64,000 bases of DNA from Cyanobacteriota bacterium. GTDB taxonomy: Bacteria > Cyanobacteriota > Cyanobacteriia > Thermostichales > Thermostichaceae. Both the position numbers and the translations under genes were made by a program. The notes below the pieces were generated by a model. The model was not told where the DNA came from. It did no database searches and saw nothing but the letters and a program-made list of their open reading frames with translations. This document shows, piece by piece, positions 3,338-54,853 of the stretch. The stretch covers positions 25,047 through 89,046 of the forward strand of contig JANRIL010000017.1 of assembly GCA_033764955.1 (NCBI GenBank), given 5' to 3'. The stretch's first letter is position 1. Each line of letters starts with the position of its first letter.

Positions 3338-4321
3338 ATGGCAGAGACTCTTTTCTTTAATGCCCTGCGTGAAGCCCTCGACGAAGAAATGTCCAGGGAT
3401 CCCAATGTGTATGTTTTGGGAGAAGACGTAGGGCACTATGGCGGATCCTATAAAGTCACGAAAGATCTCTACAAAAAGTATGGGGAATGGCGGCTTTTAG
3501 ATACCCCCATTTGCGAAAATAGCTTCACGGGATTAGCAATTGGCTCAGCCATGACCGGGCTGCGACCCGTGATCGAAGGCATGAATATGGGCTTTTTGTT
3601 GCTGGCTTTTAATCAAATTGCCAACAACGCAGGCATGTTGCGCTATACCTCTGGGGGCAACTTCAAAATTCCGATTGTGATTCGTGGCCCCGGTGGAGTG
3701 GGCAAACAACTAGGAGCCGAACATTCCCAACGCCTAGAAGCCTATTTTCAGGCTGTGCCCGGTTTGAAAATTGTCGCTTGCTCCACTCCCTACAACGCCA
3801 AAGGATTGCTGAAATCAGCGATACGAGACGATAATCCAGTCCTCTTTTTTGAGCATGTTTTGCTCTACAACCTCAAAGAAAACCTACCGGAAACAGAATA
3901 TCTCTTACCCCTCGATCAGGCCGAAATCGTCCGTCCTGGCAACGATATAACCATTTTGACCTACTCGCGGATGCGCTACCACGTTCTCAAGGCTGTGGAA
4001 CCATTGGTGGCTTCTGAAATTGATCCCGAAGTCATTGACTTGATTTCTCTCAAGCCCCTCGATATGGAAACCATTGGAAATTCTATTCGTAAAACCCATC
4101 GTGTGGTGATTGTCGAAGAAGATATGAAATCCGGTGGAATTGGTGCAGAGATCACGGCGCGCATCATGGAAGAACTGTTTGATGAACTGGATGCTCCGGT
4201 GCTGCGGCTAGCCTCCCAAGATATTCCCACCCCCTATAACGGAGTCATGGAAGCCGCCACCATTGTGCAACCGGCTGACATTGTGGCCGCTGTCGAACAG
4301 ATGCTGGGGCTAGCAGTCTAA
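3338..4321 (+). CDS. pdhB: Pyruvate dehydrogenase E1 beta subunit
   Basis: [21 protein letters not shown] and GAEHSQRLE motifs. Confidence 0.97.
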
Positions 4322-4369
4322 TCAAAAATTCGTTGCTAAGATTTGCATGAGCTAGCAGTAGCAAGCACC

Positions 4370-19500: not shown

Positions 19501-19747
19501 AGTCTACTTTTTCCTCAAAGGGAAAATAGTGGTTAAATAGCTTCAAATAACTCCAAACAAACAAAATACTCTGATAGTTTTTGGGTGGAATAACATCTCC
19601 CCAAAGATTGTCAGAGTTATTTCTTGTTCCCCTCAAACTTGGCATCTCCAAACTGCTTTCTGGGCAGGGTGATAACGATTTTTTCACAATTGTCCAGTAA
19701 GATTGAGGGATCCCTTTCCCCAATGATCAGGTAGGTCGGGTGATACG

Positions 19748-20200
19748 ATGCGCTATTGGTTGATGAAATCGGAACCCACGGTCTACGGGATCCAACATCT
19801 GCGGCAACAGCAGCAGACCCTTTGGGATGGGGTGCGTAACTACCAAGCCCGCAACTTCTTGTTGGAAATGCAGGAGGGGGATTTGGCCTTCTTCTATCAT
19901 TCCAACAGTCAGCCCCCTGGCATTGCTGGGTTGATGCGGGTGATCGCCACTCAGATAGTGGATCCCAGCCAGTTTGACCCCATCAGTCCCTATGCCGATA
20001 GTAAAGCCACCCCGACCCAGCCCCGTTGGTGGACGGTGAAGGTGGAGTTTGTTGAAGAAATTTCGCCCCTTATTGATCTCACCCAACTCAAGCAGAGATT
20101 TTCGGGAGATGATCTCTGGGTGGTGCGACGGGGCAACCGTTTGTCCGTTATGCCCGTCGAAACCTGGGTGGCCGAGAATATTTTATCCCTGCGCAGCTAG
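19748..20200 (+). CDS. EVE domain protein
   Basis: YWLMKSEP, WDGVRNYQARN, FFYHS and RLSVMPV motifs. Confidence 0.95.
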   Translation: MRYWLMKSEPTVYGIQHLRQQQQTLWDGVRNYQARNFLLEMQEGDLAFFYHSNSQPPGIAGLMRVIATQIVDPSQFDPISPYADSKATPTQPRWWTVKVEFVEEISPLIDLTQLKQRFSGDDLWVVRRGNRLSVMPVETWVAENILSLRS

Positions 20201-20215
20201 AATCTGTCATCAATT

Positions 20216-20303
20216 CGATAACGACCACGTTGAGCTGCCCCAGCACTTTTTCGGATTCAACGAAGAGACTTGATACGGTCGGTGTACAACAGGATTGTTA
20301 TGC
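20216..20303 (-). mobile_element. attC-like site 1 (integron cassette recombination site, imperfect/chimeric)
   Basis: Minus strand reads GCATAAC-aatcctgttg...ggcagctcaacgtggtc-GTTATCG; it begins 4 nt after the serine hydrolase stop codon. Confidence 0.65.
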
Positions 20304-20307
20304 TGAG

Positions 20308-21573
20308 CTATCTCATCAACACCCGCATTATAATCGCCAGTGCCCCTAACCCAATCCCAACAAGCGCTGGCACCAAACGATCACCCAAAATTCGCAACTT
20401 TGCATTCATCGGTAGCTTCCCTGTTTCCCAGTAAACCCAGTCATCTCCTAACTGGCTTGCTAACTCTAAATTGCCTGAAATCAGGAGAACGATACCATTA
20501 CCCGTAGCAGGATTGACCCGCACCGTATGCCCTAGCGCAGGCAAATTCCCCCCATCATGACCTACCGCATACTCATCAATGCCATTAGCAACATACAAGG
20601 TATGCCCTAAACCCCAATCTTGATGTGCCCCTGGCTGAGGCTGAATCATTTGGTTTAGTGTTTCTTGTTTTAGAACTAAGTTCTTTCGGCTATAAGCTTG
20701 AACGAAGCGAGCCATATCTTGAGGGGTTGCATAAAGGGATGCCGCTGCTGTAGCTGTATATCGACGGTGAGGACTCGGTTGAAGTTCTTCATCGAAGCTA
20801 GTTGCTAGCTTATCTGCACGACCAGAAGCAGCGATCGCCTCCCAGTCAAAGCTTGATTTTTCCATGCCCAAAGGCTGCAAGATAGCCTTTTCCATATAGT
20901 CCGAAAAAGACCGTTGGGTAACTTCCTCAATTAATAATTGCAAGACTGTATAACCCCCACCGGAATATAGCCAGTTTCGTCCAGGCTCTCTAGCAACTGT
21001 GACACCACGAGATTTTCCTGACGTAGAATCCTTAGTCAAAGTCAGCGATTCTTCAAGGGATTGAATCGACTCACCTGGCAGAAAACCAGCATAGCCAAAA
21101 AGATCGTCTAATCCCCCTGTATGACTTAACAGATGTCTAATAGTTACCTTATCGCTATATTGACTCACGGGAAATTTCCAGCGTTTTAGGTACTGGTTTA
21201 CAGGTTTATCTAAAGCAATTGTTCCATCTTCTACGAGCTTCATAATTCCCCAGGCAGTGATCATCTTACTCACAGATGCCATCTGGTAGAGTGTCCGATC
21301 AATCTCGACGGGAGATTTTTTTTCGGCATTTGCAATTCCAAAAGGATGGGCTGCAACGACTTCACCCTTTTGAATCAGAATAAGAGCCGCACTACCCAGT
21401 TTCGGCTTACCTAGTTGGCTCAGTTTTTGGATCAAGTAGTTTTCGATGGTCACCAAATCCCCGCGCGGTGCCGCTGGACGGGCGATCCAAAACACTTCAA
21501 CAATGACAATCCCAATGACAGTCACAGCCCAAAGTATTATCCAGCCTATCGTCGTGAAGATCTTGATACTCAT
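20308..21573 (-). CDS. Serine hydrolase, beta-lactamase class C/PBP family, carried as a gene cassette
   Basis: ASVSK (SxxK), HLLSHTGG, WLYSGGG and GHDGG motifs; N- and C-terminal TM helices; flanked by attC sites. Confidence 0.9.
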   Translation of the reverse strand: MSIKIFTTIGWIILWAVTVIGIVIVEVFWIARPAAPRGDLVTIENYLIQKLSQLGKPKLGSAALILIQKGEVVAAHPFGIANAEKKSPVEIDRTLYQMASVSKMITAWGIMKLVEDGTIALDKPVNQYLKRWKFPVSQYSDKVTIRHLLSHTGGLDDLFGYAGFLPGESIQSLEESLTLTKDSTSGKSRGVTVAREPGRNWLYSGGGYTVLQLLIEEVTQRSFSDYMEKAILQPLGMEKSSFDWEAIAASGRADKLATSFDEELQPSPHRRYTATAAASLYATPQDMARFVQAYSRKNLVLKQETLNQMIQPQPGAHQDWGLGHTLYVANGIDEYAVGHDGGNLPALGHTVRVNPATGNGIVLLISGNLELASQLGDDWVYWETGKLPMNAKLRILGDRLVPALVGIGLGALAIIMRVLMR

Positions 21574-21667
21574 GCTTTTGAAGAAAATCTGGTGAGGAAA
21601 AGAGTGAGAGCGTTCACTTCAAGCGCAGTACAAGGTTTAATATTTATCTCCCATCCAAGGGTGAGCG

Positions 21668-21798
21668 GTATAACGCCCGGCATCACCGGCGCGGGAACGG
21701 GAACAGGCGAAAGCTTCCACGTGGAATCTAGTTCGGGATGCTGGCTGAGTCCCCCGCAAGGAGCCATGCCCCGCGTCCGGTGCATGCCGTTGTTAGGC
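21668..21798 (-). mobile_element. attC site 2 (canonical)
   Basis: Minus strand: R'' GCCTAAC-aacgg-L'' CATGCACC-ggAcgcgg...ccgcgcc-L' GGTGATG-ccgggc-R' GTTATAC. This is an imperfect palindrome with two extrahelical bases, 11 nt after the NYN stop. Confidence 0.9.
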
Positions 21799-21809
21799 TG
21801 GCGCACTTT

Positions 21810-22367
21810 CTACGGATTGAACAATAATTCATCGAGTAGACAATTGAAGTCGCTAGCAAGACGCAACGCGGGGCTCAATCCATCGGAAACAAACCATACG
21901 CCGACGCGAGCTCCTTCTCCTTGCACGGCTCTCACGAGCGGTACATAATCTTCATCACCTGCCACAAGTACGGCTACATCATAATGCTTCCGCATGCCGT
22001 GGACTAGCATGTCTGTTGCTAAGGTTATATCAACCCGCTTTGACCCCTTTCCTCTATGTTTCTTGAACACGCGCGGCGTTTCAATGCCCATATCCTTGAG
22101 CCGTTGCTCGACTTCGCTAAGCCTTGGTTGATCACCTTGCACTGCGGTGTAGTAATACTTCCGCATGATAGCGGGCGTGTTAAGGCCTTCAAGGTTGAGT
22201 TCCGCAGTCCAAACAAAAATGCCAGGCACGTACTGAACCCGACCAACAGGAGCTGAATTGCGCTGCTTCAGCATGGCGCCGTAACGAATCGCCAGGTTTT
22301 CTCCATCCACAAATATCATTGCTCTTGCGAGATCAGCTGTATAAGGAAGTAAGAAGGGCATCAGCAT
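21810..22367 (-). CDS. NYN-domain (LabA/DUF88, PIN-like) nuclease, carried as a gene cassette
   Basis: IFVDGENL, KRVDITLATDM and VLVAGDEDYVP acidic active-site motifs. Confidence 0.9.
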   Translation of the reverse strand: MLMPFLLPYTADLARAMIFVDGENLAIRYGAMLKQRNSAPVGRVQYVPGIFVWTAELNLEGLNTPAIMRKYYYTAVQGDQPRLSEVEQRLKDMGIETPRVFKKHRGKGSKRVDITLATDMLVHGMRKHYDVAVLVAGDEDYVPLVRAVQGEGARVGVWFVSDGLSPALRLASDFNCLLDELLFNP

Positions 22368-22415
22368 TACCTTGAATTGCGAGAACAAAGTCGAACAGAA
22401 TCATTGCGTGCGACA

Positions 22416-22502
22416 GCCTAGCGACCACATTGAGCTGCCGCGGATAAGCTAATAACTCCCACAAAAACCCTCTCGGCAGTCGGCTCCAACGACTGGTGAT
22501 AC
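22416..22502 (-). mobile_element. attC-like site 3 with mutated core triplets
   Basis: Minus strand reads GTATCAC-cagtcgttggagccgactgccg...cggcagctcaatgtggtc-GCTAGGC. The arms pair, but AAC has become CAC and GTT has become GCT. Confidence 0.75.
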
Positions 22503-22642
22503 CGCGGTGCTAATCTCCACTAATTTTCACTAGCTGGTCCCTATTCAAGTAATAGCTATGAACTACTAGGATATTCTACAAGGTTAGCTTATTGAGAATA
22601 GAGCGCCTCGAAAATATAGGGGTGCTTGTTGAGAATAGCCTG

Positions 22643-22766
22643 GTATAACGTGGTTAATTTTCGCAATATGGCAATTAATCGAGGTTCTCAATAGATAACC
22701 TAGACTGAGGGTTGTAGACTTCGTTCATCCTCAATAAATACCTTACTGAATTTGTCAGCGTTACCC
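22643..22766 (-). mobile_element. Possible degenerate attC (or attI-like) site 4 at the head of the array
   Basis: Minus strand reads GGGTAAC...GTTATAC with only weak internal pairing; its GTTATACC matches the GTGATACC end of the preceding unit. Confidence 0.4.
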
Positions 22767-22803
22767 ATAACGCACTACCGATCAACTAGCAAAAACCTCT
22801 CTC

Positions 22804-23835
22804 CTAGGGGAGGTTAAGTTGGGTAGTGCTGCCCCCTCGCACCGCCACAGTATTAGCTTGCCAGTTGATAGTAGCGGAACTACCGCGCACGGAGAGGTTT
22901 TGGTTGGGTTGTTGGTAGGCAACATTCCCTTGCGCCTCTACCACTGTCGAGCCGACCTGCCAGGTCATCTGCCCCGCTTCCACCCGCAGTTGACTTTTAT
23001 CCGAGCGTCCAACCACATTGCCCGTTACCACAATCTGCTGAGGAGGCCAAGGAGAGGTCATCCGATCCCCCTGTAGGTTTAACTGCTGTTCAGGATCGAC
23101 AATTTCAACAGATCCCTGCGCTTGCAGTGATTGCTGAGCTAGGTCAAACCCAACGGTGGTGGCTGCTACTTGTAGGTTGGGCTGACTGACACTTCCCCGC
23201 ACCGGCTCTCCGGAGGAGTTGGCTAAGGTGATTTGCTGGTCAGCAAAATTGACGGTTAAGCGATCAGATTGCAACTGCCATCTGCTAGCGGATCCCTCAG
23301 CCTGAAGATTTTGCTGCAAGATGACTTGACCGGTAGCGGTCAAGAGATTCTCTTCGGGCAACCATTCCACCCGATCCGCCTGCACCTCCACCTGATCGTG
23401 GGCGGAAAGCACACGGACGGATCCCGTCAGTTCCAGCCTTTTGTCGAGGGGATAGACGGATCCGCGATCCGCCAGCATGGTGATGGCACGGTTTTGGGGA
23501 TCATAAAACTCCCCTGCCACAGTTTCTAAGCTAGCTGAAACTCCTTCGTTGTCGTAAGTAGCCTGTTGAGCGCTCACCTTCCACAAGATACGTCCATTGG
23601 GTTGAGATTCCGTCAGGGTAATGTTTTGGTAGGTGAGGTTGGGGCTAGCGGATCCGGCAACGCTCTCCGTTGTGGACGGGTTGGACTCCGGCAATGGGGG
23701 GGCACAAGCTGCCAGCATGGTCAGCAGCAGACCCAAGCTGCTCATTCGCCAAGAATTGTCCATCTTGCTGATCATCCCTTCGTCCTGATGCCTCAAGCCT
23801 ATACTGTTGGCGGAGATAACCGGATCCCTGCTCAT
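22804..23835 (-). CDS. LPS export LptC/LptA(OstA)-like lipoprotein
   Basis: LAAC lipobox, GRILWKVSAQQATY, and repeated beta-jellyroll (G-x-V) segments; start uncertain. Confidence 0.75.
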   Translation of the reverse strand: MSRDPVISANSIGLRHQDEGMISKMDNSWRMSSLGLLLTMLAACAPPLPESNPSTTESVAGSASPNLTYQNITLTESQPNGRILWKVSAQQATYDNEGVSASLETVAGEFYDPQNRAITMLADRGSVYPLDKRLELTGSVRVLSAHDQVEVQADRVEWLPEENLLTATGQVILQQNLQAEGSASRWQLQSDRLTVNFADQQITLANSSGEPVRGSVSQPNLQVAATTVGFDLAQQSLQAQGSVEIVDPEQQLNLQGDRMTSPWPPQQIVVTGNVVGRSDKSQLRVEAGQMTWQVGSTVVEAQGNVAYQQPNQNLSVRGSSATINWQANTVAVRGGSTTQLNLP

Positions 23836-24015
23836 GTTTATATCTTGGATTGTTCCCTCACTCTAGCCAATCCTGACCAGGGATCCCTATCAGGTCTGGG
23901 TTTGTGGCTCTGTGATTAACGGACGGATTGCCAGGGCTGAGTCTGCCTGCTCTGATGGCGAGTGTTAGGATAGGTTACGAAGCGTATTCATCCATCGGCA
24001 GAGGGTTTATCCGGC

Positions 24016-24831
24016 ATGTTTCTGACCACCAGCCCCTACTTTCTCATGGCCGCGTTGACTGCGTTAGCCAGTGGTGGCATTTTTGCAATCCGCTACATTA
24101 AGCCGGAGGCCGCCCGTGAGTATGACGTGATCTTTGCCACGATGGGTCTGATTTATGCAGGCTGCCTCCTCCTGGAAGGACAACGCCTCATTCCTTTACT
24201 ATTTTTTGCCCAAGTATTGTTGGCCGTGATGGCGGGTTGGTTTGCTCTAGAAACCTTTCGCTTGCGCTTGCAGTTAATGGAAAAATCCAAGCAAGTTGTC
24301 GGCAAAGGAGGGCGACGAGAAGGGTTTAATCGCACCTATCGACCCAATGAGTATGAATCCGGTCGCACCGTGAGTACCCGCCGTGGTGATGCCCGCATGC
24401 GCGATGGTGCCGGCAGTCGCACCATTGCCAGCCGTGATAACGGGGATCCCCGCCATCCTCCCGCCCGTCGCCGTCCCCCGCAGTTGACCGCCGATACGAC
24501 GGTTGCTCCACGCCGCTCCCCCAAACCTGCTCCGTTGGAAGACGACATCGATACCTATGAGGGAGAGGAGTATGACCGTTGGGAGGACAGAGATAACAGT
24601 CCGCCTCCCCCTTCAGAGCGTCGCCCTGCTGGTAGCAGACCCCGTCCCCCTGCTGATGATAATTTTGGGGAAGAGGATGCTCCCCGTTCTGAGCGCTCCG
24701 ATAGCCCTGCGGCAGGATCCCGTCGCCGTCCGCCCCGTCTTCCTGATCAAGGGGAACCCGAAAACCGTCCGCCCCGCCGCGTCATCCAGGTGGAGCCTGT
24801 GATTGAGGATAACGATGAGGATGATGTATAG
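24016..24831 (+). CDS. ycf66: Ycf66-family protein
   Basis: KPEAAREYDVIF, QRLIPLLFFAQ and ETFRLR in the N-terminal domain; long Arg/Pro/Asp-rich disordered tail. Confidence 0.8.
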   Translation: MFLTTSPYFLMAALTALASGGIFAIRYIKPEAAREYDVIFATMGLIYAGCLLLEGQRLIPLLFFAQVLLAVMAGWFALETFRLRLQLMEKSKQVVGKGGRREGFNRTYRPNEYESGRTVSTRRGDARMRDGAGSRTIASRDNGDPRHPPARRRPPQLTADTTVAPRRSPKPAPLEDDIDTYEGEEYDRWEDRDNSPPPPSERRPAGSRPRPPADDNFGEEDAPRSERSDSPAAGSRRRPPRLPDQGEPENRPPRRVIQVEPVIEDNDEDDV

Positions 24832-51379: not shown

Positions 51380-52240
51380 ATGATTCATTCTGCACCCTCC
51401 GTTTCTCTCCCCATTCATAAGTACCACGGCTTAGGCAATGACTTTGTTTTGTTGGATAATCGCCAACAGCCTGAGTTGTTGATCACCCCTCAACAGGTCA
51501 TCCAAATCTGTGACCGTCGCTTTGGAGTGGGGGCAGATGGCGTGATTTTTCTCTTGCCCAGTCAGTCAGGATCCGATTTCACGATGCGGATCATCAACAG
51601 CGATGGCTCGGAACCAGAGATGTGCGGGAATGGGATTCGCTGCCTAGCCCAATTTCTGGGAGATCTTGGGGTGAAATCTTCCACCTATCGCATCCATACC
51701 CTGGCTGGAGAAATGGTCTTGCAGGTGGCTGAAGAGGGTCGGATTACGGTTGATATGGGAGTGCCCCATCTGCTGGCGGCAGAAATTCCGACCACCTTGG
51801 CAACCTCCAGCGATAAGGTGATTGAACAGCCCCTTTGGGTTGCTGGGCAAACCTGGTCAGTCACCTGTGTCAGTATGGGCAATCCTCACTGTGTGACATT
51901 TTTGCCGGAGATTGCCAGCCTTGACTTGGCGGCCATTGGTCCACAATTTGAGCATCATCCTGTCTTCCCGAAACGGACAAATACGGAGTTTGTCAAGGTC
52001 GTGAGCCGTAACCATCTGCAAATGCGGGTCTGGGAACGGGGAGCCGGAGCAACCCTAGCCTGTGGTACGGGGGCTTGTGCGGTGCTAGTGGCTGCCGTCC
52101 TAACCCAGCAGGCGGAGCGGCAAGCGGTGGTGGAGTTGCCGGGGGGATCCCTACGCATCGAGTGGAACCCGGAGAACGAGCATGTTTTTATGACCGGACC
52201 AGCCCAACATGTCTTCAGCGGCGTCTATGATTTGGTCTAA
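51380..52240 (+). CDS. dapF: Diaminopimelate epimerase
   Basis: HGLGNDF, EMCGNGIRC, MGNPH and ERGAGATLACGTG motifs. Confidence 0.97.
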   Translation: MIHSAPSVSLPIHKYHGLGNDFVLLDNRQQPELLITPQQVIQICDRRFGVGADGVIFLLPSQSGSDFTMRIINSDGSEPEMCGNGIRCLAQFLGDLGVKSSTYRIHTLAGEMVLQVAEEGRITVDMGVPHLLAAEIPTTLATSSDKVIEQPLWVAGQTWSVTCVSMGNPHCVTFLPEIASLDLAAIGPQFEHHPVFPKRTNTEFVKVVSRNHLQMRVWERGAGATLACGTGACAVLVAAVLTQQAERQAVVELPGGSLRIEWNPENEHVFMTGPAQHVFSGVYDLV

Positions 52241-53088: not shown

Positions 53089-53434
53089 TGGGAGATCTTT
53101 GCTCTCGCGACTCTTATAGAATGGCTATATGTCTAAATTCATGAGATTCAACGCGAGCCAACAATTCACATATAGCGAATGGTTGATTTTCACTGAAGCA
53201 GGGTTCAGGTTATTGTCACCCTGATTGGGAGCGTTAGACTTAGGAGAACAACCCTTGTCCAAAAGGGCGGATGGTAACGGGGGAATGAAACCCACTCAGA
53301 CGATAGTGCTAGATCTCTTAGTGGCTGGGCTGGCTCAGGTGGCGACCTGGCTGATGGTGTTCAACCTGATTTTGCAACCCTATCGACAGCGCCCCCTCCC
53401 AACGGCTCCCCCCCTTGCCCATCAGGAGTCAGAT

Positions 53435-54853
53435 TCATCGCCAGTGGACGGTGAGAGCTTGTCGTTCCTCTGCTGTCAAACGTCCGGCTCCCAGTAGAGT
53501 TTCCGTAATCTCAGAAATCCTAAACACGGCGTGACCTCGGTAGCCAGCCGCTGCTAGGCGCTCAGAAACCCCCTGTTCATGGTCGATCAACACCACAATA
53601 TCGTTAACCCGCAAGCCCGCCGATTGCAGCTTGGCAGCCCCTTCCATTGCACTTTTTCCAGAAATCAAAATATCATCCACCACCACTACGGTTTCATCAG
53701 GTTCAAATGCCCCTTCGATTAAGCGGCGAGTTCCGTGGGCTTTCACTTCTTTGCGAGGAAAAATCATGGGGCGGTTCATTCGTAAGGCCAATCCGGTGGC
53801 AGTGGGCAAGGATCCATAAGGGATCCCGGCAATGCGATCAAAGGTAAGGGTTTTGAGAATCTGCTCGTAGAGGCGCAGGATTTGCTGGAACACTTGGGGA
53901 TTAGAAATAATCGTTCGCAGATCAATGTAATAGGGAAACACGGCTCCTGATGCTTGCACATACTCCCCAAACAAAATGCAGCCGATATCATACAGTTGCA
54001 AAATCAATTCCAACCGTGGATCCCGACTTAATAAACACACATCCGCAACCCACAGGGCACAAGTTTGCTGAGCAATCACCTGAAAACGAATCTGATTAAC
54101 GTGATCCCGTAACAGGCGTATTTTTTGTGACCGATCGGGATCAGCCAAATAATCTTGAGGAATGGGAATCAATAATCCTGATCCATCTTGGTTGATGCCC
54201 GCCGTCAAAATCGATGATAGGGAATAGTTGGATGTCCACAAACGCCGTAAAAGCAGAAGGCGTTCGGGAGCGAAGGAACGGATTTTTCCCAACAGATCGG
54301 GGGAAGGAGCGATCATCTCAAAGCCAAGTTGATCGGGGGTTCCCCAAGCACGAATTTCTGCCATATCGGACAAAGTTAGATCTGCTTCCTCGGAGGAGGA
54401 AATGATATCTCTATGGCGACAAAGTAAAAAAACTCCCTTGTCGGGATACAGCAAAAATGGGGCAACACCGTCTTGTCCAGAGGCAAGATTTAGGGTGATC
54501 GCATCCACCCTCCACTTTTCAAAAACGGTGCGAGCTATCGCTGATGCCGTATTCAAATCTGCATGCTTGGCATCTAGGATCACCGGAATCGAATTAGGGA
54601 TGTGAGCCAGCACTGCTTCTAATAACTGCAAACCAGGGGATCCCAAGGCCAAATAAAATCCTAATGTGGGCTTAAAGGCGCAGACTGAATCTGCCGTTTG
54701 ATCAATCACGTTGATCAGCCAGTTATAGAGACTTTGCAGCCCATCCGATGAGGTTTCATGATGGTAGGGAAACCAGTCTGGGTTGGGATCCAGCCCCACA
54801 CACAAGAGGCTTTGATGGTTAGCAATAGCAATATCAAGCTTTTCGGCAAACAT
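53435..54853 (-). CDS. Bifunctional OMP decarboxylase / orotate phosphoribosyltransferase
   Basis: LCVGLDP, FKP and ILDAKHAD in the N-terminal domain; YYIDLR, RKEVKAHGT and VVDDILISG in the C-terminal domain. Confidence 0.9.
   Translation of the reverse strand: MFAEKLDIAIANHQSLLCVGLDPNPDWFPYHHETSSDGLQSLYNWLINVIDQTADSVCAFKPTLGFYLALGSPGLQLLEAVLAHIPNSIPVILDAKHADLNTASAIARTVFEKWRVDAITLNLASGQDGVAPFLLYPDKGVFLLCRHRDIISSSEEADLTLSDMAEIRAWGTPDQLGFEMIAPSPDLLGKIRSFAPERLLLLRRLWTSNYSLSSILTAGINQDGSGLLIPIPQDYLADPDRSQKIRLLRDHVNQIRFQVIAQQTCALWVADVCLLSRDPRLELILQLYDIGCILFGEYVQASGAVFPYYIDLRTIISNPQVFQQILRLYEQILKTLTFDRIAGIPYGSLPTATGLALRMNRPMIFPRKEVKAHGTRRLIEGAFEPDETVVVVDDILISGKSAMEGAAKLQSAGLRVNDIVVLIDHEQGVSERLAAAGYRGHAVFRISEITETLLGAGRLTAEERQALTVHWR

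What the first reader, a model, noticed from the sequence alone, without database searches (positions are those of the whole stretch)
20216..22773. Integron gene-cassette array with no integrase (CALIN-like) between the EVE and lptC-like genes
Seen on the minus strand: [site 22643-22766] - ORF-less unit - attC 22416-22502 - NYN gene - attC 21668-21798 - serine hydrolase gene - attC 20216-20303. The two genes each stop 4-11 nt before an R''-like AAC box. The 21668-21798 site is a textbook attC with R''/L''/L'/R' boxes and two extrahelical bases. Each unit's start is complementary to its own end, as expected for a once-circular cassette: NYN unit GCTAGGCTGTCGCAC versus GTTAGGCTGGCGCAC (13/15), hydrolase unit GTTATACCG versus GTTATGCTG, empty unit GTTATACC versus GTGATACC. 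The region lacks GGGATCCC, and no tyrosine recombinase ORF is present in the 64 kb window. Inference: an integron-type capture system acts, or acted, in trans in this cyanobacterium, in a phylum where integrons are poorly characterised.
Basis: partly seen in the sequence, partly recalled or inferred. Interest (0 to 1): 0.85.

Follow-up and report, generated by a model that had tools for sequence, protein, structure and literature searches.

The report
Integrase-less integron cassette pair in cyanobacterium
Two foreign genes sit between two housekeeping genes as integron gene cassettes bounded by three recombination sites, with the integrase genes encoded elsewhere in the same genome; this is a real but ordinary example of a known kind of element.

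Summary
The core of the finding holds. Three attC sites lie on the minus strand: 22416-22502, 21668-21798 and 20216-20303. They bound two cassettes, an NYN-domain gene and a PF00144 serine hydrolase.

The contig has no tyrosine recombinase. The genome has two full-length integron integrases elsewhere and about 80 attC sites in 48 clusters. The hydrolase cassette recurs in a metagenome contig and in four sequencing runs. There the likeness stops at the cassette's recombination point, behind a different attC. NYN relatives are followed by attC sites in at least 9 of 36 loci from other phyla.

One part is wrong. The fourth "site" (22643-22766) and the "ORF-less unit" are two nested MITE-like repeats.

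attC-1 has lost both conserved triplets and attC-3 has a damaged L box, so the array looks old.

CALINs, and integrons in cyanobacteria, are already described (PMC4889954). This is a new member of a known kind, of modest interest.

The parts
22416..22502 (-). attC-1, the leading site, 87 nt. It belongs to the genome's 86-87-nt attC family. No ORF stands in front of it. R'' reads GTATCAC and R' reads GCTAGGC, so both conserved triplets are mutated.
   Evidence: R1 34.2 bits, E 1.4e-7. R2 29.1 bits. 78% identical over 79 nt to the attC at C31:20605-20690. Triplets read.
21674..22421 (-). NYN cassette, 748 nt, measured from the base after the G of attC-1's R' to the G of attC-2's R'. The ORF is 21810-22319 (169 aa from the ATG; a TTG at 22388 gives 192 aa).
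   Evidence: PF01936 NYN, E 9.4e-20, with the domain starting at residue 22 of the long form. Start and end are 13 of 15 complementary. Relatives in 36 genome loci of many phyla; attC directly behind the gene in 9 of 36. At most 30% identity in 30 related genomes.
21668..21798 (-). attC-2, 131 nt, intact. R'' is GCCTAAC and R' is GTTATAC. A 12-bp L helix carries two bulged bases on the R''/L'' arm, and the terminal loop is long.
   Evidence: R2 36.2 bits, E 1.5e-5 in the window and 9.1e-4 genome-wide. Fold z -2.49. 12 of 12 pairs in a strict architecture scan that gives 29 hits in the genome and 3 in a shuffled genome. R1 cannot span it.
20222..21673 (-). Serine-hydrolase cassette, 1452 nt. 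The ORF is 20308-21573 (421 aa).
   Evidence: PF00144, E 9.6e-58. No NCBIfam class C beta-lactamase cut-off is reached: 47 bits against 415. L086 is 91.7% identical over window 21675-20301 and unrelated beyond, with attC sites on both sides. Contigs of runs X1 and X6 cover 20287-21675 with 68 and 83 differences.
20216..20303 (-). attC-3, 88 nt. R'' is GCATAAC and R' is GTTATCG, both intact. L'' no longer pairs with L'. The site ends 15 nt from the stop codon of the convergent EVE gene.
   Evidence: R1 22.6 bits, E 4.9e-4, with four non-standard pairs marked in the L helix. R2 23.7 bits. The copy of this attC in X1, X3 and L086 keeps the canonical L''.
22533..22779 (-). E1, a MITE-like repeat with ends GGTAGT...ACTACC. 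It is not an integron part.
   Evidence: 20 copies or fragments in the genome. In 10 other copies the two halves are contiguous.
22598..22695 (-). E2, a second small repeat with inverted ends CACCTCGA...TCGAGGTG, nested inside E1.
   Evidence: Three other copies, on C13, C14 and C22, at 84-87% identity.
22804..23835 (-). lptC-like flanking gene, on the same strand as the cassettes. Its stop lies 24 nt before E1.
   Evidence: PF06835, E 2.6e-15. Found in 29 of 31 genomes of the relatives set, aligned to its last residue.
19748..20200 (+). EVE-domain flanking gene, convergent with the array and intact.
   Evidence: PF01878, E 7.9e-49, covering residues 2-147 of 150.

Best explanation
[quoted passage not shown] It holds two integron gene cassettes, an NYN-domain protein and a membrane-anchored PF00144 serine hydrolase, behind a leading attC. 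The array is lodged in the short spacer between the convergent lptC-like and EVE genes.

Shown:
- Three sites have attC sequence and structure.
- Each gene is directly followed by its site.
- Each cassette start is complementary to its own R'' end.
- Contig C23 has no integrase.
- Two full-length IntI genes with arrays of the same attC family lie elsewhere in the genome.
- The hydrolase unit occurs elsewhere, cut exactly at the attC crossover point and joined to other attC sites.
- Both genes lack close relatives in related genomes.
- The DNA lacks the host's hyper-abundant GGATCC palindrome.

Inferred:
- An IntI encoded elsewhere in this genome, or in an ancestor, excised the cassettes as circles and inserted them here. 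It used the folded bottom strand (the window's + strand) and crossed over at G|TT. The target was either a non-att genomic site or an attC already present here.
- The promoterless cassettes are transcribed by read-through from lptC, which is on the same strand.
- The array is now largely fixed. attC-1 has lost AAC and GTT, attC-3 has lost L-box pairing, and two MITE-like repeats have since inserted upstream of attC-1. At most attC-2 remains a good substrate.
For: - Model hits. The top three of 64 kb are the three sites, on the same strand, with exact boundaries. The models contain no window sequence.
- The training sites have a consensus of R box, 5-nt spacer and L box with two bulges; 6 of 18 pairs show compensatory changes.
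- IntI: two matches over the curated cut-off. The C9 copy aligns full length to 2a3v, and the two copies are 90% identical.
- No tyrosine recombinase on C23.
- Mobility of the hydrolase cassette. L086 matches window 21675-20301 at 91.7% and has attC sites at 2821-2906 and 4269-4358, flanking the gene. X1 and X6 contigs stop at 21675. The X1 sequence beyond that point reads, by eye, as the L'-spacer arm of an 87-nt-family attC.
- NYN relatives: R1 gives 15 hits in 6 of 36 loci, all on the gene's strand, and 4 loci have a hit within 150 nt behind the gene. The architecture scan gives 7 of 36, against 1 of 36 and 0 of 36 in controls.
- Foreignness: 0 GGATCC where 8.0 are expected. NYN is at most 30% identical, and the hydrolase at most 54% (one genome; otherwise at most 31%), in 30 relatives.
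- Genome context: 80 attC sites in 48 clusters, which lie in GGATCC-free islands.
Against: - IntegronFinder's curated attC model was not available. R1 and R2 are home-made and their E-values are rough.
- Two of the three sites fold no better than shuffles and carry defects.
- No empty lptC-EVE junction could be found. No genome of the same genus is held, lptC is only 35-46% identical in relatives, and 0 of 11 lptC loci (1.5 kb on each side) hold EVE, NYN, hydrolase or Ycf66.
- The upstream boundary of the insert is undefined, and the leading attC has no ORF.
- Two of the three closest hydrolase loci (L087, L088) and the G029 relative have no attC at the thresholds used.
- Read-through expression is untested.
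- The promoter scan is at chance level (3 found, 3.5 expected), and no intrinsic terminator was found.
Confidence: 0.85

Rival explanations
1. The array is a remnant or split-off piece of a once complete integron at this locus. Either the intI and attI were deleted, or a rearrangement carried part of a larger array here. On this reading there was no insertion in trans.
For: Cury et al. list intI loss and rearrangement among four possible origins of CALINs (PMC4889954, passages). The genome holds intI fragments and pseudogenes on C36, C4, C30 and C38. A MITE-like repeat sits at the upstream edge. The leading attC has no ORF, as if something had been lost.
Against: Contig C23 has no TIGR02249 or PF00589 match at E<=1e-3, including pseudogene fragments read through stops. 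Intact housekeeping genes lie 15 nt from one end and 24+30 nt (repeats removed) from the other, which leaves no room for intI or attI. No second copy of E1 or E2 is present at the other end.
Confidence: 0.1
2. The array is still fully active. All three sites are good IntI substrates, and the cassettes are excised and reshuffled today.
For: Two apparently intact IntI genes are present. attC-2 is intact. attC-3 keeps AAC and GTT. The literature quoted says integron integrases tolerate divergent attC sites.
Against: attC-1 has CAC for AAC and GCT for GTT at the crossover triplet. attC-3 has four non-standard pairs marked in the L helix, whereas the same cassette's attC elsewhere is canonical. Two repeats have accumulated upstream of attC-1. 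No sequencing run of this organism could be found to look for excision joints.
Confidence: 0.1
3. The palindromes are not integron sites. They would be chance inverted repeats, terminators or another repeat family behind two ordinary genes.
For: Two of the three sites have no significant fold. The fourth claimed site did turn out to be a different repeat. The genome is rich in repeats.
Against: Independent models place the three sites at the top of 128 kb of searched strand, with exact ends. The same family flanks the two intI genes. The hydrolase unit is exchanged exactly at G|TT in other DNA. No Rfam family matches at E<=1. No terminator-like site was found.
Confidence: 0.02

Closest known systems
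[quoted passage not shown] 2016, PMC4889954; IntegronFinder)
   Same: Two or more attC sites lie within 4 kb on one strand with no intI nearby. The element is small (83% of CALINs have fewer than six sites). The cassettes are non-resistance genes unknown to INTEGRALL-type collections. A complete integron co-occurs in the same genome (passages read).
   Different: Nothing essential differs. The local particulars are a leading attC without an ORF, decay of two sites, and MITE-like repeats at the edge. IntegronFinder itself was not run.
Cassette insertion at non-att genomic sites (attG) and SALINs (Loot et al., bioRxiv 10.1101/2022.09.11.507474)
   Same: Cassettes stand alone or in small groups among ordinary chromosomal genes, far from intI and not framed by transposable elements. 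This genome has 33 single attC sites and 13 small clusters. The preprint shows experimentally that IntI1 inserts cassettes at GWT sites across the E. coli genome (passages read).
   Different: No insertion junction can be proved here, because no empty site is available. The preprint's experiments were done in E. coli with IntI1, not with a cyanobacterial IntI. The unit here holds three attC sites, not one.
Sedentary chromosomal integrons with homogeneous attC families, such as the Vibrio repeats (structure 2a3v)
   Same: The resident arrays on C9 and C38 carry a homogeneous 86-87-nt attC family next to an IntI that aligns full length with VchIntIA. attC-1 and attC-3 belong to that family.
   Different: The window's array is detached from any intI. 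It mixes family-type sites with a 131-nt site that has no other copy in the genome.

Membership tests
integron attC site | R'' (RYYYAAC) and R' (GTTRRRY) boxes with the conserved AAC and GTT triplets | tested here: met
   attC-2 has GCCTAAC and GTTATAC. attC-3 has GCATAAC and GTTATCG. The triplets are named as the most conserved positions in PMC4889954.
integron attC site (attC-1 only) | Conserved AAC and GTT triplets | tested here: not met
   attC-1 reads GTATCAC and GCTAGGC. It is a family member by overall sequence and model score, but it is probably not a functional site.
integron attC site | L''/L' helix after an unpaired spacer, with extrahelical bases on the R''/L'' arm (the 3' arm of the recombined bottom strand) | tested here: met
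   attC-2 has 12 of 12 pairs with two bulges, and the bulges fall on the 3' arm of the + strand. attC-1 largely meets this feature. attC-3 does not: four non-standard pairs are marked.
integron attC site | Scored by an attC covariance model | tested here: met
   R1 gives 34.2 and 22.6 bits. R2 gives 36.2, 29.1 and 23.7 bits. These are the top three hits in the window. The models are home-made from sites outside the window. IntegronFinder's own model was not available.
integron attC site | Lies directly 3' of a promoterless ORF on the same strand, and the cassette start is complementary to its own R'' end | tested here: met
   The gaps are 11 nt and 4 nt, and complementarity is 13 of 15 and 7 of 9. 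The promoter scan is at chance level. attC-1 has no ORF.
integron attC site | The cassette is exchanged as a unit at the G|TT crossover | tested here: met
   For the hydrolase cassette, likeness to L086, X1 and X6 ends at 21675, one base before G|TT, with another attC upstream. This was not shown for the NYN cassette.
integron attC site | Bound and recombined by an integron integrase as a folded single strand | not testable with these tools
   This needs a recombination or binding assay.
CALIN | At least two attC sites clustered within 4 kb | tested here: met
   Three sites on one strand, with spacings of 617 and 1364 nt.
CALIN | No integron integrase or pseudogene nearby (4 kb; 10 kb for pseudogenes) | tested here: met
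   The 89-kb contig C23 has no TIGR02249 or PF00589 match at E<=1e-3 in six frames.
complete integron | intI with adjacent attI and cassette promoter | tested here: not met
   No intI lies on the contig. attI and Pc cannot be searched for in an uncharacterised class.
MITE-like repeat (for 22533-22779, the claimed fourth site) | Many dispersed short copies with inverted ends and no ORF | tested here: met
   E1 has 20 copies or fragments, and E2 has 4 copies counting the window's. The inverted ends were read from the alignments. No target duplication was identified, and no transposase partner was sought.

The most novel reading that the evidence does not exclude
In this cyanobacterial lineage the integron may work mainly as a scatter-gun rather than as an ordered array. 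The resident IntI would have seeded the chromosome with some 44 intI-less attC loci: 31 single sites and 13 small clusters. Each sits in its own GGATCC-free island, median about 1 kb for single sites. Cassettes would insert at non-att genomic sites, often behind host genes that can drive them, as here behind lptC. The window's array would be one fixed, decaying product of that route. That would make the genome a natural test case for the attG pathway outside Proteobacteria.
Probability: 0.35. Interest if true: 0.5.

Novelty: new member of a known kind. Interest (0 to 1): 0.3.

Why it matters
This is a clean, well-delimited example of accessory genes entering a cyanobacterial chromosome through the integron route and then becoming fixed. 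The recombination sites decay, small repeats move in, and the genes stay intact between two housekeeping genes.

The exact-boundary match of the hydrolase cassette in unrelated environmental DNA shows that the unit circulates. The genome-wide picture (two integrases, about 80 attC sites, most of them away from any integrase) suggests that cassette dispersal is frequent in this lineage.

None of this changes what is known about integrons. It extends documented behaviour to a less-studied group, and it offers candidate sites (one intact, two damaged) for testing what a cyanobacterial IntI requires of its substrate.

Tried and rejected
1. Empty-site test. The DNA search of 30 relatives found only the EVE and ycf66 segments, on separate places. 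lptC loci of 11 relatives held none of the neighbouring genes. ycf66 loci of 6 relatives likewise. A metagenome scan with LptC found no relative. The test could not be done.

2. R1 on the 131-nt site. The best result was a partial 1.9-bit match. The model cannot span so long a loop. This is a limit of the model, not evidence against the site, and R2 was built for that reason.

3. First broad alignment, A2 (20 sites). Two rows, C28_8017 and L071, were misaligned. I dropped them before building R2 from A3 (18 sites).

4. The fourth site and the ORF-less cassette were rejected (see observation check).

5. Sequencing runs. No run holds half or more of the words; shares were at most 0.08, and no RNA holder is listed. 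In the four runs laid, the NYN cassette, lptC and most of EVE had no cover. Nothing follows from that. A joint at 21693->21772 in X1 (side 23, likeness threshold 85) suggests an attC with the same arms and another loop, but it is below the tool's own caution limits.

6. G029, the only relative with a 54% hydrolase homologue, has no attC within 11 kb at E<=1 near the gene and no IntI match at E<=1e-30.

7. L087 and L088 (85% and 83% aa) have no attC by model or by eye.

8. Rfam gave no match at E<=1.

9. The scan's earlier findings held nothing for this genome.

10. Mosaic origin of attC-3. Its centre resembles L086's attC (19 of 34), and its 3' arm resembles attC-1 or C31 (21-22 of 30, against 16 of 30). 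The numbers are too small to conclude anything.
Full report
ANATOMY

Coordinates are read on the minus strand.

- The lptC-like gene (PF06835) stops at 22804-22806.
- 24 nt follow.
- Next is a 247-nt block, 22779-22533.
- 30 nt follow.
- attC-1 spans 22502-22416.
- The NYN gene runs from the ATG at 22319 to the stop at 21810-21812.
- 11 nt follow.
- attC-2 spans 21798-21668.
- The PF00144 serine-hydrolase gene spans 21573-20308.
- 4 nt follow.
- attC-3 spans 20303-20216.
- 15 nt further lies the stop of the convergent EVE gene (PF01878; 19748-20200 on the + strand).

ARE THE SITES attC SITES?

I took attC sites from beside the genome's own integron integrases.

- A scan for TIGR02249 in the assembly (48 contigs, 3.8 Mb) gave 9 matches at E<=1e-3. 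Two are full length and over the curated 265-bit cut-off: C9:19-960(-) at 463 bits and C38:63588-64529(+) at 451 bits. The rest are fragments or pseudogenes. None lies on the window's contig, C23.
- On the cassette side of both genes lie 86-87-nt sites with RYYYAAC and GTTRRRY ends.
- Seven such sites, from C9, C38 and C31, align to a consensus of R box, 5-nt unpaired spacer and L helix with two bulged bases on the 5' arm. Of 18 pairs, 6 show compensatory changes.
- The covariance model built from them (R1) was run with filters off over the whole window. It scores 22416-22502(-) at 34.2 bits (E 1.4e-7) and 20216-20303(-) at 22.6 bits (E 4.9e-4).
- R1 cannot span the 131-nt site.
- I therefore built R2 from 18 sites of 59-126 nt. 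Eleven come from this genome and seven from six loci of other genomes that hold NYN relatives. None comes from the window. Only the R box and outer L box are paired in this model.
- R2's three best hits in the window are 21668-21798(-) at 36.2 bits (E 1.5e-5), 22416-22502(-) at 29.1 bits and 20216-20303(-) at 23.7 bits. The next hit has E 0.38.
- Genome-wide, the 131-nt site still has E 9.1e-4. In that search 150 of 473 first-look candidates were scored.
- A strict architecture scan required YYAAC, a 4-7-nt spacer, a 12-bp helix with two 5'-arm bulges and at least 11 pairs, and GTTR. It finds 29 sites in the genome and 3 in a shuffled genome. The 131-nt site has 12 of 12 pairs.
- Folded as DNA, the + strand of the 131-nt site gives -36.9 kcal/mol (z -2.49), with the bulges on its 3' arm, as expected of the recombined bottom strand.
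- The two short sites fold no better than shuffles, z -0.8 and -0.9.

WHAT IS WRONG IN THE FINDING

- Neither model reports anything at 22643-22766 at E<=10.
- BLAST of the region against the genome shows that 22782-22690 and 22601-22540 are the two halves of one ~150-bp repeat, E1. The halves are contiguous in 10 other copies. The genome holds 20 copies or fragments in all.
- The stretch between them, about 22695-22598, is a second repeat, E2, with three other copies.
It is a one-base variant of what the other copies read.
- The 'GTTATGGGTAAC' hairpin is a diverged stretch of E1.
- The array therefore has a leading attC with no ORF in front of it. Only 54 nt of non-repeat DNA separate it from lptC.

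STATE OF THE SITES

- attC-2 is intact.
- attC-1 reads CAC for AAC in R'' and GCT for GTT at the crossover triplet in R'.
- attC-3 keeps both triplets, but four non-standard pairs are marked in its L helix.
- The same cassette's attC in other DNA keeps a canonical L'' (see below).
- This points to decay in place.

ARE THE UNITS MOBILE CASSETTES?

Hydrolase cassette
- A metagenome scan with the protein returned 9 loci.
- The closest is L086 (91% aa, on a 67.9-kb contig). At the DNA level it matches window 21675 to 20301 at 91.7% over 1375 nt, and nothing outside that range.
- Position 21675 is the base before the G|TT of attC-2's R'. Position 20301 lies in R'' of attC-3.
- In L086 the gene is framed by other attC sites at 2821-2906 and 4269-4358, with a third at 970-1057. 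All are on the gene's strand. R1 scores them 14.7, 28.6 and 42.6 bits; R2 scores them 20.5, 23.2 and 40.3 bits.
- The cassette start after GTT is conserved between L086 and the window, while the upstream attC differs.
- Logan contigs of four metagenome runs from four studies were laid on window 19700-23900. They cover the hydrolase cassette at about 94-95% identity. X1 record 7 covers 20287-21675 with 68 differences. X6 record 32 covers the same range with 83.
- X1 and X6 stop at 21675. The 30 letters that follow in X1 read, by eye on the cassette strand, as the L'-spacer arm of an 87-nt-family attC.
- At the other end, X1, X3 and X6 stop at 20287 inside attC-3. The identical continuation in X1 and X3 reads as a canonical L''.
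- Against this: L087 and L088 (85% and 83% aa) and the one related genome with a 54% homologue (G029) show no attC.

NYN cassette
- The protein has 648 relatives at E<=1e-5 among 892 candidates. The best non-self relative is 74% identical.
- 36 loci were fetched from genomes of many phyla.
- R1 finds 15 sites at E<=1 in 6 of the 36 loci, all on the gene's strand. In 4 loci the site lies within 150 nt behind the gene. One locus, L059, holds an array of seven.
- My architecture scan finds a site behind the gene in 7 of 36 loci. Controls give 1 of 36 on the opposite strand and 0 of 36 inside the gene.
- Together, 9 of 36 loci have an attC directly behind the gene.

FOREIGNNESS

- GGATCC occurs 3.08 times per kb in this genome and GGGATCCC 1.29 times per kb. 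The stretch 20216-22802 has none of either, where 8.0 and 3.3 are expected (P 3.5e-4 and 0.035).
- Array GC is 0.485 against 0.515 for the genome.
- In 30 related genomes NYN is at most 30% identical. The hydrolase is at most 54% identical in one genome and at most 31% elsewhere.
- The hydrolase reaches no curated class C beta-lactamase cut-off: 47 bits against 415. I therefore call it a serine hydrolase, not a resistance gene.

THE INTEGRASE IN TRANS

- The contig has no PF00589 match: 11 matches in the genome, none on C23.
- The C9 IntI aligns over residues 4-313 to the Vibrio integron integrase structure 2a3v (E 6.6e-92). There is only one single-residue gap, and the alignment runs through the segment that I recall as specific to integron integrases.
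- The C38 copy is 90% identical to the C9 copy.
- Both pass TIGR02249.

GENOME CONTEXT

- I clustered 80 sites: 75 of R1's 79 hits, dropping the four with E>0.03, plus five from R2 or the architecture scan. The rule was same strand and no more than 4 kb apart. This gives 48 clusters.
- Two clusters lie beside full-length intI: 7 sites on C9 and 4 on C38.
- Two single sites lie within 2.5 kb of intI fragments, on C4 and C38.
- 13 further clusters have 2-4 sites, the window's among them. 31 further sites are single.
- Ten clusters touch GGATCC-free stretches that run to a contig end, so some may be parts of broken arrays.
- Single sites sit in GGATCC-free islands with a median of 1023 nt (28 sites away from contig ends). 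The genome's median gap is 218 nt and its 95th percentile is 910 nt. The window's island is 3330 nt.
- TIGR02249 passes its cut-off in 15 of 31 genomes of the relatives set, this one included.

MECHANISM AND ITS STATUS

- Shown: attC identity, cassette structure, absence of a local integrase, presence of integrases elsewhere, exchange of the hydrolase unit at G|TT, and foreign composition.
- Inferred from established integron biology (PMC4889954; bioRxiv 10.1101/2022.09.11.507474; passages read): IntI acted in trans on the folded bottom strands and placed the cassettes here. The target was either a non-att genomic site or an attC already present.
- The origin cannot be settled, because no empty site exists among the genomes held.
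- Loss of a local intI is unlikely, given intact housekeeping genes within 15 and 54 nt of the ends.
- Read-through from lptC is inferred from strand and position only. The promoter scan is at chance level and no terminator-like site was found.

COMPARISON AND VERDICT

The element meets the two defining features of a CALIN (Cury et al. 2016) and resembles the small, IS-free CALINs and SALINs that Loot et al. attribute to insertion at attG sites. Integrons in Cyanobacteria are already on record. It is a new member of a known kind. Interest is modest: 0.3.

Noticed in passing
window 22533-22779 (E1) and about 22598-22695 (E2): Two families of small MITE-like repeats, one nested in the other. E1 has 20 copies or fragments in the genome and E2 has 4. 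The same E1::E2 composite also occurs at C14:51021-51274. Three of the 20 E1 copies lie within 120 nt of an attC (window, C27, C45).
   Followed up: partly
window 53156-53239 (+): A candidate decayed single attC between a dapF-like gene (51380-52240) and a long gene on the other strand (53435-54853). R1 gives 20.7 bits (E 1.8e-3) and R2 gives 13.4 bits (E 0.9). No convincing ORF lies upstream on its strand.
   Followed up: partly
whole genome G000: About 80 attC sites fall into 48 clusters, and only two clusters lie beside full-length intI. attC loci sit in islands free of the host's hyper-abundant GGATCC motif.
   Followed up: partly
whole genome; window: GGGATCCC occurs 4915 times (1.29 per kb), in the manner of a highly iterated palindrome. 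The classical GCGATCGC is rare (109 copies), and one of those lies inside the hydrolase cassette.
   Followed up: no
window 20216-20303 versus L086:4269-4358 and window 22416-22502: attC-3 looks mosaic. Its centre resembles the attC that follows the same cassette in L086 (19 of 34). Its 3' arm is closer to attC-1 and to the C31 site (21-22 of 30) than to L086 (16 of 30). The numbers are too small to interpret.
   Followed up: partly
L086:2727-2840: Upstream of the hydrolase cassette in the metagenome contig, the 5' arm of the attC appears about three times in tandem: two partial copies and then the complete site. This was read by eye.
   Followed up: no
G000: C36:180-860, C4:4-123, C30:655-831, C38:182627-182934: Further integron-integrase fragments or pseudogenes; the C36 match holds two in-frame TAG codons. 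Some lie at contig ends, so the assembly may break inside further integrons.
   Followed up: no
window 24178-24225 (-): A weak match limited to the R boxes, inside the ycf66-like gene. R1 gives 13.8 bits (E 0.23) and R2 gives 15.2 bits (E 0.38). It is most likely chance.
   Followed up: no
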